Below, one piece after another: positions 26,651-45,513 of a stretch of 64,000 bases of DNA. Under the pieces are notes generated by a model that saw nothing but the letters and a program-made list of their open reading frames with translations, did not search any database and was not told the DNA's origin. The DNA lies in the sequence record OQ420740.1; one strand, given 5' to 3'. This DNA comes from Escherichia phage B9-1. A program made the position numbers and the translations under genes. Position 1 is the stretch's first letter; every line of letters begins with the position of its first letter.

Positions 26651-26679
26651 TTGACAAACTTTGCTTAACAGTGTAATAT
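26651..26679 (+). promoter_or_regulatory. sigma70 promoter for the tRNA cluster (TTGACA-N17-TAATAT)
   Basis: Consensus -35 and near-consensus -10 about 60 bp upstream of the first tRNA. Confidence 0.55.
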
Positions 26680-26903: not shown

Positions 26904-27017
26904 AATTTATATTTTTAAATGCATAAATCATACAGATAATGACATTGATATTTATCGTCGTTTATACTAGTCACTAACTGCTCGAAAATCAGTGTCATTA
27001 TCAGTGTAATTTATAAA

Positions 27018-27108
27018 GGAGGGTAGGGAGCAATGGTGCTCAAGCGGTCTTGAAAACCGTCCCGTTGAGGATGACTCGATGATGGTTCGATTCCATTACT
27101 CTCCGCCA
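27018..27108 (+). tRNA. tRNA-Ser (anticodon UGA), long variable arm
   Basis: Acceptor ggagggt/actctcc, anticodon loop CUUGAAA, T-arm gatgg-TTCGATT-ccatt, encoded CCA, 91 nt. Confidence 0.7.
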
Positions 27109-27206
27109 CATTGTTGACCTTGTAATTAAGCGAAAGCCGGAAGCAGAACCGGATTATCAAATGTTACAGTCGTCATCGCCGACTAGCCACATGGTCAACA
27201 TATTTC

Positions 27207-27305
27207 GCTAGGTAAGCCCTTTGGCAAGGGCGAGGATTTTTAATCCTGAAAATAGACGAGGTAGTCGTTGAATACATAGGTGGTTCGATTCCATCACCTA
27301 GCACC
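27207..27305 (+). tRNA. atypical tRNA-like element (99 nt), identity unresolved
   Basis: Perfect 7-bp acceptor gctaggt/acctagc, D-arm gccc...gggc and T-arm ggtgg-TTCGATT-ccatc, but about 30 extra nt between anticodon region and T-arm; a possible UUU anticodon loop 'tttttaa' is non-canonical. Confidence 0.35.
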
Positions 27306-27386: not shown

Positions 27387-27461
27387 GGCCCTGTAGCTGG
27401 AAGGTTCAAGCAAGCGACTCATAATCGCCAGACGGTGGTTCAATTCCACCCAGGGCCACCA
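27387..27461 (+). tRNA. tRNA-Met (anticodon CAU; initiator, elongator or Ile2 type not distinguishable)
   Basis: Acceptor ggccctg/cagggcc, anticodon loop CUCAUAA, T-arm ggtgg-TTCAATT-ccacc, encoded CCA. Confidence 0.7.
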
Positions 27462-44515: not shown

Positions 44516-45513
44516 TGGCAGAGTACAGACGTAGAACATGGCGATTATTATTTGGTCGTCCTGTAGAGCATGGCGGTAAATCAAAAACCAATATCCCAAA
44601 ATCTGTTGAAAAGAAAGGAGAGAGTGATTCCGGAGTTTATGAGATTAGCTCGGACACTGGTGCTGCCAATATAGAGTTTGACATACAAAAGGACAATACC
44701 AAAGAGCCAAACAAAGGCTATGTGACAGTTTACAACCTGTCTGACGATACAGTTAACTATCTGGATATGCATCAAGCTGATGCTCTTGCAGTTATGTTTG
44801 AGGCTGGCTATGATAATGAGAACCAGTTGATATTCTCAGGAACTGTAGAGTTTGTTGAGGACAGATGGGAAGGTCCGACCAGAAAAACTAAGTTCATCTT
44901 TGGGGATGGCACTGAGAACATCATTAAGTGCCAAAGCACAAGGTCTTATCAGAAAGGTACACCTCTGAACTCTGTGCTTAATGACCTGCTGAAGGATATG
45001 AACTTGCCAAAAGGCAGGGTTGTTGGTTTTGGAAACCAGACTTTACAATACTCTATGGCTTTCTCTGGGAACACTGCAGAGAACCTCCGCAGGTTTGCAA
45101 GGCTGACAAACTCAACATTCAGCGTTCAGGACGGTGCTCTATATTGGACCAAGGTTGGAAAAAGGTTCAAGGACTCTGTATTTGAAATAAGTGCAGAGTC
45201 TGGGATGCACGGATCACCCACACCTAAAAACCCAGAACCTGCTAAAAAACGAAAAGCTAAAGCTGCTGCGAAAGGTGGCACAAGTAAGAAAAAGAAAAAC
45301 CCGAGAGAGGATGTTGGTCTTACTGTAACCACATGTCTTAACGGGGCTATCCTCCCAGAGTCCACCATTTATCTTAAAAGCAGGCAATACACAGGCTTCT
45401 ATAAGGTGATCACAGTCCATCATAAGGGCACCATAGAAGGCGGTGATTACACTACAGAGCTTGGCCTTGGGGAAACAATAGGTGGAGTTGTTGACAAAAC
45501 TGAGGAGGTATAA
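44515..45513 (+). CDS. tail/baseplate protein (putative)
   Basis: 332 aa with a basic stretch 'KKRKAKAAAKGGTSKKKK'. Confidence 0.3.
   Translation: MAEYRRRTWRLLFGRPVEHGGKSKTNIPKSVEKKGESDSGVYEISSDTGAANIEFDIQKDNTKEPNKGYVTVYNLSDDTVNYLDMHQADALAVMFEAGYDNENQLIFSGTVEFVEDRWEGPTRKTKFIFGDGTENIIKCQSTRSYQKGTPLNSVLNDLLKDMNLPKGRVVGFGNQTLQYSMAFSGNTAENLRRFARLTNSTFSVQDGALYWTKVGKRFKDSVFEISAESGMHGSPTPKNPEPAKKRKAKAAAKGGTSKKKKNPREDVGLTVTTCLNGAILPESTIYLKSRQYTGFYKVITVHHKGTIEGGDYTTELGLGETIGGVVDKTEEV

What the first reader, a model, noticed from the sequence alone, without database searches (positions are those of the whole stretch)
27113..27305. Atypical 99-nt tRNA-like element and a preceding hairpin-closed 88-bp spacer inside the tRNA cluster
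27207-27305 has a perfect 7-bp acceptor stem, a standard D-arm and a canonical T-arm with discriminator and CC, but about 30 extra nucleotides between the anticodon region and the T-arm, and its best anticodon stem-loop (tttttaa, possible UUU) is non-canonical. It could be a tRNA with an unusually long extra arm, a tRNA carrying a small insertion, or a tRNA-like decoy. Immediately upstream, 27113-27200 is closed by an 8-bp inverted repeat (tgttgacc...ggtcaaca) and contains an internal ccgg...ccgg hairpin, unlike ordinary tRNA spacers.
Basis: seen in the sequence. Interest (0 to 1): 0.45.

Follow-up and report, generated by a model that had tools for sequence, protein, structure and literature searches.

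The report
Oversized tRNA-like gene and structured spacer
In the tRNA cluster of this rV5-like E. coli phage there is a real, conserved but structurally abnormal tRNA-family gene (Lys-type loop, 31-nt extra region), preceded by a separate conserved folded element that also occurs, unannotated, in phage lambda and P1/P7; neither has a known function.

Summary
Both observations are real. The window is an rV5-like Vequintavirus. 27207-27305 is the only ARAGORN call in the window without an assignable anticodon, and it passes the Rfam tRNA threshold (35.5 vs 29 bits). It belongs to a discrete family found once per genome across Vequintavirinae (29 distinct sequences). All 580 acceptor, D, T and upper anticodon-stem cells pair, and 10 of 20 pairs show compensatory changes, including the tertiary G19:C56 to U19:A56 swap. 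So it is a selected L-shaped RNA, not a pseudogene or a recent insertion. Non-canonical features are A8/U14, a 4-bp anticodon stem, and a 31-40-nt variable region made of two conserved linkers around a covarying hairpin. Here the loop is UUUUUAA with A73, the E. coli Lys identity set. Most other genera have UCC/GCC, U73, G1-C72 and C2-G71, the Gly set. My best guess, inferred and not shown, is a chargeable, structurally disguised tRNA-Lys surrogate or decoy. The spacer is a separate ~65-nt conserved core closed by a stem that differs in sequence but stays paired. It is shared with lambda's Q-S leader, P1/P7 plasmids and a Salmonella phage, and it came in together with tRNA-Ser. Its function is unknown.

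The parts
26651..26679 (+). sigma-70-like promoter (TTGACA-17-TAATAT) upstream of the tRNA cluster; context for co-transcription
   Evidence: 10 of 12 consensus matches. No convincing intrinsic terminator lies between it and 27549; the one '+' terminator-like hit inside the cluster is the element's own D arm.
27018..27108 (+). tRNA-Ser(UGA), inherited as one block with the spacer core
   Evidence: It is ~90% identical to an unannotated tRNA-Ser(tga) of phage P7 (L006:591-677), which is followed by the same core.
27109..27206 (+). spacer: stem-closed structured module between tRNA-Ser and the tRNA-like gene
27112..27119 (+). 5' arm of the closing stem (TGTTGACC)
   Evidence: The closing stem is >=7 bp in 84 of 85 distinct homologues with at least 7 unrelated stem sequences; mean 9.7 bp vs 5.05 for shuffled 3' flanks.
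27124..27187 (+). conserved core AATTAAGCG...CTAGC, 85-88% identical to lambda 44866-44934 and P7 72367-72434
27137..27152 (+). core hairpin 1: CCGG-AAGCAGAA-CCGG (invariant)
   Evidence: 15 of 15 sequences identical in all four pairs, so it gives no covariation evidence
27168..27184 (+). core hairpin 2: AGTCG-TCATCGC-CGACT
   Evidence: pair G-C in lambda/P7 becomes U-A in the rV5 type (4 sequences changed on both sides)
27193..27200 (+). 3' arm of the closing stem (GGTCAACA)
27207..27305 (+). non-canonical tRNA-family gene (99 nt including the encoded CC)
   Evidence: 106 bits with family model R1
27207..27213 (+). acceptor stem 5' strand; pairs with 27296-27302
   Evidence: 7 pairs, 100% paired in 29 sequences, 4 with changes on both sides
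27214..27215 (+). positions 8-9 (AA). A8 is invariant in the family, where canonical tRNAs have U8; the partner position 14 (27220) is invariant U instead of A.
27216..27231 (+). D arm GCCC-TTTGGCAA-GGGC with G18 G19
   Evidence: 3 of 4 stem pairs covary. D-loop G19 (27224) covaries with T-loop C56 (27286): G:C in 20 sequences, U:A in 9.
27233..27247 (+). anticodon-like arm AGGA-TTTTTAA-TCCT (4-bp stem, 7-nt loop; TTT at 27239-27241), 15 nt instead of the canonical 17
   Evidence: pairs 1-4 are paired in 29 of 29 sequences (pair 4 occurs as U-A, C-G and A-U); the fifth possible pair is formed in 21 of 29
27248..27278 (+). 31-nt variable region: linker GAAAATA, hairpin GACGA-GGTAG-TCGTT (27255-27269), linker GAATACATA
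   Evidence: the linkers are conserved in all 29 sequences (GAAAA and AATACATA invariant); the hairpin is replaced by unrelated pairing sequences in other genera; region length is 31-40 nt
27279..27295 (+). T arm GGTGG-TTCGATT-CCATC
27296..27305 (+). acceptor 3' strand ACCTAGC, discriminator A (27303), CC (27304-27305); the final A of CCA is not encoded
   Evidence: the discriminator is A only in the rV5 type and U in 23 of 24 other sequences (C in one), 22 of which also encode CCA

Best explanation
SHOWN: 27207-27305 is a genuine gene for a non-canonical, L-shaped tRNA-family RNA. It is the Vequintavirus member of a discrete family that occurs once per genome throughout Vequintavirinae. The acceptor, D and T arms and the D-loop/T-loop elbow contact are under purifying selection. 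The RNA departs from tRNA rules in four conserved ways: A8/U14 instead of U8/A14; an invariant G.G at the 26/44 position; an anticodon arm 1-2 nt short (4-bp stem); and a 31-40-nt variable region built from two conserved single-stranded linkers around a covarying hairpin. INFERRED: it is transcribed with the six ordinary tRNAs from the promoter at 26651 and released by RNase P and 3' trimming plus CCA completion. INFERRED, the committed mechanism: it is aminoacylated. In this phage the loop is a textbook U32-U33-UUU-A37-A38 and the discriminator is A73, which is the full bacterial Lys identity set. In most other genera the triplet is UCC or GCC with U73, G1-C72 and C2-G71, which is the Gly set. 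rV5-type phages carry no ordinary tRNA-Lys. Host tRNA-Lys(UUU) is the preferred target of several E. coli immune nucleases that cut its anticodon arm (PrrC, PARIS AriB, a Schlafen nuclease). I therefore think the RNA most likely acts as a structurally disguised tRNA-Lys(UUU) surrogate, or failing that a decoy, during infection. The spacer 27109-27206 is a separate thing. It is a ~65-nt conserved core with two hairpins, closed by a stem whose sequence is free but whose pairing is kept. The lineage acquired it together with tRNA-Ser(UGA). It is probably liberated as a small structured RNA when the flanking tRNAs are processed. Its function is unknown.
For: The gene is real and selected: ARAGORN call; Rfam tRNA 35.5 bits vs 29; fold z = -3.66. 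Among 29 distinct homologues from phage genomes and metagenomes, 580 of 580 cells pair, 10 of 20 pairs change on both sides, and slid controls pair only 34-47%. The tertiary 19:56 pair switches G:C to U:A in 9 sequences. It is a discrete family: model R1 gives 102-118 bits to one locus per genome and at most 32 bits to any intact ordinary tRNA (34 bits to the V18 deletion chimera). The 22-nt family pattern has 0 matches in 185,579 bacterial and archaeal genomes. The extra region is ancestral: the linkers are conserved and the hairpins are unrelated in sequence yet all pair. Identity signals: TTT with A73 in all 5 rV5-type sequences; TCC/GCC/TCA with U73, G1-C72 (all but one) and C2-G71 in the other genera; identity sets from PMC9976931 Table 1. 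rV5-type phages have only Arg, Tyr, Ser, Thr, Met/Ile2 and Pro besides this gene. tRNA-Lys(UUU) and Thr(UGU) are the main PARIS targets (PMC12409363), and tRNA-Lys is the top Schlafen target (PMC13056530); here the UUU gene sits directly next to tRNA-Thr(UGU). Spacer.
Against: No expression, processing or charging data exist for any family member. A 4-bp anticodon stem and a 31-nt variable region are unprecedented for a working bacterial elongator tRNA, and the arm can also fold as 6 bp with a UUU triloop. In the other genera the loop is 8 nt, or has A or C at position 33, which argues against ordinary decoding there. Those phages already carry canonical tRNA-Gly(UCC) and tRNA-Lys(UUU), so the ancestral role was probably not codon supply. 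The Av-05 type has UAU with discriminator U or C, which fits no identity set. V18 and JES2013 deleted the gene and are viable phages. A depositor's tRNAscan-SE run flagged 'isotype prediction inconsistent'. The link to defence nucleases is an argument from context only.
Confidence: 0.45

Rival explanations
1. Non-decoding tRNA-like RNA. It keeps the 'top half' and elbow so that it is processed, given CCA and perhaps charged. It never reads codons. It acts as a sponge or decoy for tRNA-binding host factors (anticodon nucleases, acceptor-end toxins such as TacT, which recognises U73 plus G71), or as an amino-acid donor for a non-ribosomal reaction.
For: The anticodon-like loops vary in length (7 or 8 nt) and lack U33 in most genera. 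Relatives already have canonical Gly and Lys tRNAs. The invariant linkers, and in one subgroup a conserved 14-nt extra-arm loop AGAACTAACAGTAC, look like a binding surface. The U73 plus G71 signature is the one read by TacT (PMC9976931). T4 offers a precedent of stable tRNA-like RNAs of unknown role in a tRNA cluster.
Against: In the rV5 type the loop is a perfect 7-nt Lys loop with the matching discriminator, which a pure decoy would not obviously need, unless it mimics tRNA-Lys for a nuclease. No partner protein has been identified.
Confidence: 0.3
2. Structural 'punctuation' only, or a nearly neutral relic. The cloverleaf is kept because RNase P and 3' processing of the polycistronic tRNA transcript need it, and the mature product has no role.
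For: The gene is dispensable in V18 and JES2013. It always sits inside tRNA operons.
Against: Processing alone does not explain conservation of the linkers, the extra hairpin, the D/T tertiary pair, the 4-bp anticodon stem with three compensatory pair types, and the discriminator across genera infecting eight host genera. Neighbouring tRNAs are processed without such a neighbour in other phages.
Confidence: 0.1
3. Recoding tRNA. The long arm makes it a substrate of an anticodon-blind class II synthetase (LeuRS or SerRS), so it would insert Leu or Ser at Lys codons, like allo-tRNAs.
For: It has a long variable arm, and A73 is the E. coli Leu discriminator (PMC9976931).
Against: U14 replaces A14, and the core tertiary pattern differs from tRNA-Leu (my own knowledge of Leu identity). 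Ser needs G73 and G2-C71, while the family has C2-G71, which is listed as an anti-determinant against SerRS. The acceptor/T configuration is 7/5, not the 8/4 or 9/3 of allo-tRNAs (abstract of PMC5389517, listed).
Confidence: 0.03
4. For the spacer only: a DNA-level element (MITE-like repeat, recombination or protein-binding site) and not an RNA.
For: It sits in four unrelated phage backgrounds, and recombinants exist with one flank of each type (L214/L223). It is flanked by a recurring motif GTGCTCTTTCCGTTGTG that lies upstream in lambda but downstream in P7 and ST1UNAM.
Against: Mobile-element terminal repeats are conserved while interiors drift. Here the interior is nearly invariant and the terminal repeat is replaced by at least 7 unrelated but complementary sequences, with G-U pairs tolerated, which is the signature of RNA-level pairing. 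In three of four contexts it is co-oriented with the tRNA or late transcription.
Confidence: 0.15

Closest known systems
Canonical class II (long-variable-arm) bacterial tRNAs: Ser, Leu, Tyr
   Same: 7/5 acceptor/T configuration, D arm with G18 G19, T loop TTCGATT, G19:C56 elbow pair, an extra base-paired arm between the anticodon and T arms, and a location in a tRNA operon.
   Different: The variable region is 31-40 nt with 7- and 9-nt single-stranded linkers. The window's own Ser and Tyr tRNAs are 91 and 87 nt in total, against 99 nt here despite a shorter anticodon arm. Other differences are A8/U14, a 4-bp anticodon stem, and non-class-II anticodons. The family model separates it from intact ordinary tRNAs by about 70 bits.
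E. coli tRNA-Lys(UUU) and the nuclease-resistant T5 tRNA-Lys (PARIS escape; PMC11464382, PMC12409363)
   Same: Loop U-U-U-U-U-A-A (host: C-U-U-U-U-A-A, from my own knowledge of the E. coli sequence), an A-U pair closing the stem, and discriminator A73. It is phage-encoded and lies next to tRNA-Thr(UGU), the second PARIS target.
   Different: T5 tRNA-Lys is a normal 76-nt cloverleaf with two point changes near the cleavage site. This RNA has a different body, a shorter stem and a huge variable region. Resistance, charging and decoding are all untested.
Phage T4 stable RNAs rnaC (species 1) and rnaD (species 2)
   Same: Stable-RNA genes of unknown function embedded in a phage tRNA cluster. rnaC has a T arm CCGGG-TTCGAAT-CCCGG and an acceptor-like closing helix with large internal expansions.
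   Different: No similarity is detectable: model R1 finds only T4 tRNA-Leu and tRNA-Thr in that region. rnaC and rnaD are 139 and 119 nt and lack a full cloverleaf.
allo-tRNAs and tRNA-Sec-like tRNAs (PMC5389517, PMC7609411)
   Same: Long variable arm combined with unexpected anticodons (UCA in the Henunavirus members, annotated 'tRNA-sup(tca)'). Found partly in phages and metagenomes.
   Different: Those have 8/4, 9/3 or 8/5 acceptor/T arms and longer (6-bp) anticodon stems. This family is 7/5 with a shorter stem. In the Rfam clan competition, tRNA and not tRNA-Sec wins for this locus.

Membership tests
tRNA (Rfam RF00005) | Covariance-model score at or above the curated gathering threshold | tested here: met
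   35.5 bits vs 29, E = 1.5e-5, full-length model match 1-71
tRNA (canonical cloverleaf / L-shape) | 7-bp acceptor stem, 4-bp D stem, 5-bp T stem with 7-nt T loop, and the G19:C56 tertiary pair | tested here: met
   All pairs form in 29 of 29 sequences; 10 of 20 pairs covary, including 19:56
tRNA (canonical cloverleaf / L-shape) | U8 and A14 (reverse-Hoogsteen pair) | tested here: not met
   A8 and U14 are invariant in all 29 members. The canonical phage tRNAs printed from the same clusters have U8.
tRNA (canonical cloverleaf / L-shape) | 5-bp anticodon stem together with a 7-nt loop carrying U33 and a purine at 37 | tested here: not met
   The arm is 15 nt, not 17: 4 bp with loop UUUUUAA (U33 and A37 present), or 5 bp with a 5-nt loop
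tRNA (canonical cloverleaf / L-shape) | Variable region of 4-5 nt (class I) or a compact base-paired arm (class II) | tested here: not met
   31 nt here and 38-40 nt in other genera, of which 16 nt are unpaired linkers
tRNA (functional definition) | Aminoacylation and codon reading on the ribosome | not testable with these tools
   No expression or charging data were found
Bacterial tRNA-Lys identity | U34, U35, U36 and discriminator A73 (PMC9976931 Table 1) | tested here: met
   TTT at 27239-27241 and A at 27303, found together in all 5 rV5-type sequences
Bacterial tRNA-Lys identity | Whole-body isotype model agrees with the anticodon | tested here: inconclusive
   I could not run tRNAscan-SE. 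The LL12 record notes 'isotype prediction via tRNAscan-SE inconsistent'. Other records say tRNA-OTHER, tRNA-TERM, or leave it unannotated.
tRNA pseudogene / decaying copy | Accumulation of unpaired positions and indels without compensation | tested here: not met
   100% of cells are paired, and 77 cells carry double-sided changes vs 21 in shuffles
allo-tRNA / tRNA-Sec | 12-13-bp acceptor branch arranged 8/4, 9/3 or 8/5; 6-bp anticodon stem | tested here: not met
   7/5 arrangement and a 4-bp anticodon stem
T4 rnaC / rnaD stable RNAs | Sequence and structure homology | tested here: not met
   No R1 match at E <= 1 on L303:2909-3172
Any Rfam 15 family (spacer core) | Covariance-model match | tested here: not met
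   No hit at E <= 10 on window 27109-27206, nor on the lambda, P7, prophage or ST1UNAM copies at E <= 1. The STnc100 hit lies downstream of the core in P7 and is below threshold.
MITE-like mobile repeat (spacer) | Conserved terminal inverted repeats | tested here: not met
   At least 7 unrelated closing-stem sequences surround one conserved core

The most novel reading that the evidence does not exclude
Vequintavirinae carry a previously undescribed class of chargeable tRNA-like RNA. Its acceptor end and loop triplet are retuned lineage by lineage: a Gly-type signature in most genera, a Lys-type signature in rV5-like phages. Its re-engineered anticodon arm and giant variable region make it invisible to, or a trap for, host tRNA-targeting immune nucleases and toxins. 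In rV5-type phages it would be the functional tRNA-Lys(UUU) that keeps translation going when PARIS, PrrC or Schlafen-type systems destroy the host's. Separately, the spacer would be a conserved small structured RNA that phage lambda also makes from its late leader.
Probability: 0.2. Interest if true: 0.8.

Novelty: new variant of a known kind. Interest (0 to 1): 0.55.

Why it matters
Phage tRNAs have recently been recast as counter-defence tools, but the known cases are ordinary cloverleaves with point changes. A family that keeps a perfect tRNA 'top half' while rebuilding the anticodon arm and the variable region would extend what a working or mimicking tRNA can look like. It has held these features across phages of eight host genera, and in two lineages it carries matching identity signals. 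It also gives a concrete candidate to test against tRNA-Lys-targeting systems, using phages already in the BASEL collection. In practical terms, public annotation of this gene is inconsistent: tRNA-Lys, tRNA-OTHER, tRNA-TERM, 'tRNA-sup', a hypothetical protein, or nothing. The spacer result points to an unannotated, structurally constrained element in the late leader of lambda, one of the best-studied genomes.

Tried and rejected
1. Recent-insertion or intron idea: rejected, because the extra region and its conserved linkers are in every family member.
2. Pseudogene: rejected by covariation.
3. tRNA-Sec or allo-tRNA: rejected on arm geometry.
4. Homology to T4 rnaC/rnaD: tested with model R1, no hit.
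5. Origin from a particular canonical tRNA: no clear parent. The best R1 scores on ordinary tRNAs are 24-32 bits, spread over Ser, Tyr, Thr, Lys and Leu.
6. A bacterial chromosomal source: 0 pattern matches in genome contigs.
7. Spacer as the anti-sRNA AgvB or another prophage sRNA: no Rfam hit on the core. The Pas sRNA paper places Pas genes next to the holin genes of Stx phages but gives no sequences, so identity with Pas sRNAs could not be tested. It seems unlikely, because that paper found Pas genes in only 43 phage genomes and its text does not mention lambda.
8. Spacer as a coding sequence: a 1-nt indel between the lambda and rV5 copies breaks both candidate frames (sequence inspection).
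9. Spacer as a degenerate tRNA: ARAGORN finds nothing there in any context.
10. The 18-nt core pattern scan of genome contigs returned mostly chance matches (122 of 260 matches over all held loci lacked the rest of the core), so that scan was largely wasted.
11. Literature searches found no description of either element. The rV5 genome paper lists six tRNAs and omits this gene.
Full report
**Where we are.** The 981 bases around the finding are 99.7% identical to Escherichia phages ECP32 and EduardKellenberger and 98% identical to Murica and FFH2, which are rV5-like myoviruses of the genus Vequintavirus. ARAGORN finds seven genes on the + strand between 26738 and 27549. In order they are Arg(tct), Tyr(gta), Ser(tga), the 99-nt call at 27207-27305 with no assignable anticodon, Thr(tgt), Met/Ile2(cat) and Pro(tgg). 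A strong sigma-70-like promoter (TTGACA-17-TAATAT) lies at 26651-26679. No convincing terminator lies inside the cluster, so the spacer and the odd gene should be on the same transcript as the ordinary tRNAs (this is an inference).

- The acceptor stem has 7 perfect pairs.
- The D arm is GCCC-TTTGGCAA-GGGC and the T arm is GGTGG-TTCGATT-CCATC. The discriminator is A and is followed by CC.
- 31 nt separate the anticodon stem from the T stem.
- Rfam's tRNA model scores 35.5 bits, above its threshold of 29. It aligns the loop as UUUUUAA, deletes one stem position and inserts about 28 nt before the T arm.
- The minimum-energy fold is the cloverleaf plus an extra hairpin, with z = -3.66.
- The spacer's 8-bp inverted repeat is real. 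Its 5' arm starts at 27112, not 27113.
- The CCGG hairpin is present, along with a second hairpin at 27168-27184. The fold z is -2.56.

**How others have labelled it.** Many records leave it unannotated. The rV5 genome paper lists six tRNAs and omits it (PMC3606486).

**A family, not an accident.**
- BLAST with the element, and then with its Seunavirus homologue, found copies in Avunavirus, Seunavirus, Mydovirus, Henunavirus and unclassified relatives. Their hosts are Escherichia, Salmonella, Cronobacter, Klebsiella, Proteus, Erwinia, Enterobacter and Raoultella.
- Pattern scans added viral and metagenomic contigs. They found nothing in 185,579 bacterial and archaeal genomes.
- This gave 29 distinct sequences.
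- On their alignment I scored the acceptor, D and T helices, the upper anticodon helix and the tertiary 19:56 contact. All 580 cells form standard pairs. Ten of 20 pairs change on both sides, and 77 cells are compensatory against 21 in shuffles. Sliding the partners drops pairing to 34-47%.
- The D loop reads GG where the T loop reads TTCGATT (20 sequences) and GT where it reads TTAGATT (9 sequences). This is a G19:C56 to U19:A56 swap, which is hard to explain unless the RNA folds into the tRNA L-shape.
- A covariance model of the family scores 102-118 bits on exactly one locus per genome and at most 32 bits on any intact ordinary tRNA.
- The gene is therefore not a pseudogene, and the family is discrete.

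**What is abnormal, and conserved.**
1. A8 and U14 are invariant, where tRNAs have U8 and A14.
2. An invariant G precedes the anticodon helix and another follows it.
3. The anticodon arm is 15 or 16 nt instead of 17.
   - Four pairs always form, and the fourth occurs as A-U, U-A or C-G.
   - A fifth pair forms in 21 of 29 sequences.
   - The arm is thus either 4 bp with a 7-8-nt loop, or 5 bp with a 5-6-nt loop.
4. The variable region is 31 nt in rV5 and Av-05 types and 38-40 nt elsewhere.
   - It is always a linker beginning GAAAA, then a hairpin, then a linker ending AATACATA.
   - The hairpin sequence is replaced wholesale between genera yet still pairs. Examples are GACGA/TCGTT, GACGG/CCGTT, TCCCCC/GGGGGA, GCTCTC/GAGAGT and GCC/GGC versus GTC/GAC.
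   - One subgroup keeps a 14-nt loop, AGAACTAACAGTAC.

**The loop and the discriminator.** I read the loop as NN-[NNN]-A-R.
- The triplet is TTT in all rV5-type sequences and TAT in the Av-05 type.
- It is TCA in Henunavirus and several metagenomic lineages.
- It is TCC or GCC in most Seunavirus, Mydovirus and Klebsiella-phage members.
- The discriminator is A only with TTT. It is U in 23 of the other 24 sequences, nearly always together with G1-C72 and C2-G71.
- According to the identity compilation (PMC9976931, Table 1), bacterial Lys identity is A73 plus U34 U35 U36. Bacterial Gly identity is U73, G1-C72, C2-G71, G3-C70, C35 and C36.
- In two lineages, then, the acceptor end and the loop triplet agree on one amino acid. 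This is my main reason for thinking that charging matters.
- Against ordinary decoding: the 8-nt loops, A or C at position 33 in most genera, and the short stem. The relatives also already encode canonical tRNA-Gly(UCC) and tRNA-Lys(UUU).
- rV5-type phages have no other Lys tRNA. Their loop is a textbook U32 U33 UUU A37 A38.

**Mechanism, with its status.**
- Shown: a selected L-shaped tRNA-family RNA with a rebuilt anticodon arm and variable region.
- Inferred: co-transcription, RNase P and 3' processing, and CCA completion. Only CC is encoded here.
- Inferred and committed: charging with Lys, and use as a surrogate or decoy for tRNA-Lys(UUU).
- Context for this choice:
  - Host tRNA-Lys(UUU) is cut in its anticodon arm by PARIS AriB between positions 40 and 41, with Thr(UGU) as the next-best target (PMC12409363).
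  - It is also cut by a bacterial Schlafen nuclease at 30/31 (PMC13056530).
  - PrrC cuts it too (named in the same papers).
  - T5 escapes PARIS with its own variant tRNAs.
  - In this window the UUU gene lies directly upstream of tRNA-Thr(UGU).
- None of this has been tested for this RNA. V18 and JES2013 have lost the gene through deletions that fuse the 5' part of tRNA-Tyr to the 3' part of the element across the shared T-arm sequence, so it is dispensable in the laboratory.
- I put 0.45 on the surrogate model, 0.3 on a non-decoding tRNA-like role, about 0.1 on processing punctuation or a relic, and little on recoding.

**The spacer is a second, unrelated finding.**
- Its core (27124-27187) is 85-88% identical to lambda 44866-44934, which lies between tR'/orf-64 and S in the late leader. 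It is equally similar to P7 72367-72434.
- It occurs in 426 of 5,426 complete E. coli genomes: 332 chromosomal places (the five examined lie in lambdoid prophages between Q and the holin gene) and 121 plasmid places (the listed hits are ~90-120-kb plasmids, which I read as P1/P7-like). It also occurs in one Salmonella siphovirus. It is never annotated.
- In P7 it follows an unannotated tRNA-Ser(tga) that is about 90% identical to the window's tRNA-Ser. The Ser-plus-core block therefore moved as a unit.
- Among 85 distinct instances the core is nearly invariant. It is closed by a stem of at least 7 bp in 84 of them, with a mean of 9.7 bp against 5.05 bp for shuffled flanks.
- That stem has at least seven unrelated sequences:
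  - GTTGTGCTG/CAGCACAAC
  - GTTGTGGTG/CACCACA
  - a 15-bp P7 stem
  - TGTTGACC/GGTCAACA (this window)
  - GAGGATCAT/GTGATCCTT
  - GTGGATCATG/CATGATTCGC
  - a 14-bp stem in ST1UNAM
- RNAalifold predicts the closing helix, an invariant CCGG hairpin and a second hairpin with a G-C to U-A change.
- No Rfam family matches it. It does not look coding, and no tRNA finder calls it.
- A conserved interior with free-sequence but complementary ends is the opposite of a transposon-like repeat and fits RNA-level selection.
- In this phage, tRNA processing on both sides would release it as a stem-closed RNA of about 98 nt (an inference). I cannot say what it does.

**Comparison with known things.**
- The gene meets Rfam's tRNA threshold and most cloverleaf criteria. 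It fails three defining features: U8/A14, the 5-bp stem with a 7-nt anticodon loop, and a normal variable region. I therefore file it as a new variant of the tRNA kind and not as a plain tRNA-Lys.
- It is not tRNA-Sec or an allo-tRNA, because its arms are 7/5 and its anticodon stem is short.
- The nearest functional precedent for 'odd stable RNA inside a phage tRNA cluster' is T4 rnaC/rnaD. rnaC also has a T arm and an acceptor-like helix, but the family model does not detect it.
- I found no paper describing either element.

**Verdict.** Both observations are confirmed, and both features are under selection. The function is open, but several sharp tests are available.

Noticed in passing
L019:331-405 and L020:331-405 (Proteus phage Mydo, Klebsiella phage DP); L016:329-405 (Cronobacter phage EspYZU14); L008:819-894 (Salmonella phage NINP13076): The tRNA immediately upstream of the element in other genera also has an irregular anticodon loop on an otherwise normal cloverleaf: 6 nt ACGATA (ARAGORN 'anticodon ga'), 8 nt ('agat'), or 7 nt ACGATTC with C33 and U37. 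Odd anticodon loops may be a recurring theme in these phages.
   Followed up: partly
L009:~871-943 (phage V18) and L010:~837-928 (phage JES2013): Both phages carry a chimera of the 5' part of tRNA-Tyr and the 3' part of the element. These are deletions through the shared GGTGGTTCGAyTCCA T-arm sequence that removed Tyr, Ser, the spacer and the element.
   Followed up: yes
L006:591-677 (phage P7, record positions 72257-72343): An unannotated tRNA-Ser(tga), about 90% identical to the window's tRNA-Ser (27018-27108). The same spacer core follows it.
   Followed up: yes
L005:701-769 (lambda 44866-44934) and flanks: Lambda's late leader has two adjacent stem-closed modules. The motif GTGCTCTTTCCGTTGTG(C/G)TGAA lies upstream of the core in lambda but downstream of it in P7 and ST1UNAM. 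In P7 it begins a degenerate second copy of the core.
   Followed up: partly
L006:787-902 (P7): A sub-threshold Rfam match to the sRNA STnc100 (43 bits, gathering 47; model positions 31-147) lies immediately downstream of the spacer core.
   Followed up: no
L214 and L223 (IMG/VR prophage contigs): These are recombinant copies of the spacer core with a P7-type 5' flank and a lambda-type 3' flank. They are the only instances in which the closing stem is lost.
   Followed up: no
L031:5994-6079 (-); L056:2791-2865 and L042:7862-7934 (+): A tRNA-Lys(UUU)-like gene with a ~10-nt insertion before the anticodon arm (ARAGORN 'ggca'), and tRNA genes with a CUA (amber-reading) anticodon, in relatives of the subfamily.
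   Followed up: no
L004:~1130-1600 (phage VB-EcoM-WM; phage YP-6 shows the same ~346-bp length difference): A ~346-bp insertion with a 113-aa ORF where this window has tRNA-Pro; no tRNA-Pro is annotated in VB-EcoM-WM.
   Followed up: no
window 27387-27461: The tRNA with anticodon CAT is annotated as Met in most records but as tRNA-Ile (codon ATA) in the BASEL phage records. Whether it is a lysidine-type Ile2 tRNA was not examined.
   Followed up: no
window 26904-27017: The 114-nt AT-rich spacer between tRNA-Tyr and tRNA-Ser contains a second promoter-like site (ATGACA-18-TATACT at 26939-26968). The Ser, spacer and element block may therefore also have its own promoter.
   Followed up: no
phage records MG0656xx, labelled 'Campylobacter phage': About 19 records named Campylobacter phage are ~98% identical to this E. 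coli rV5-like cluster. This suggests mislabelled or contaminant genomes.
   Followed up: no
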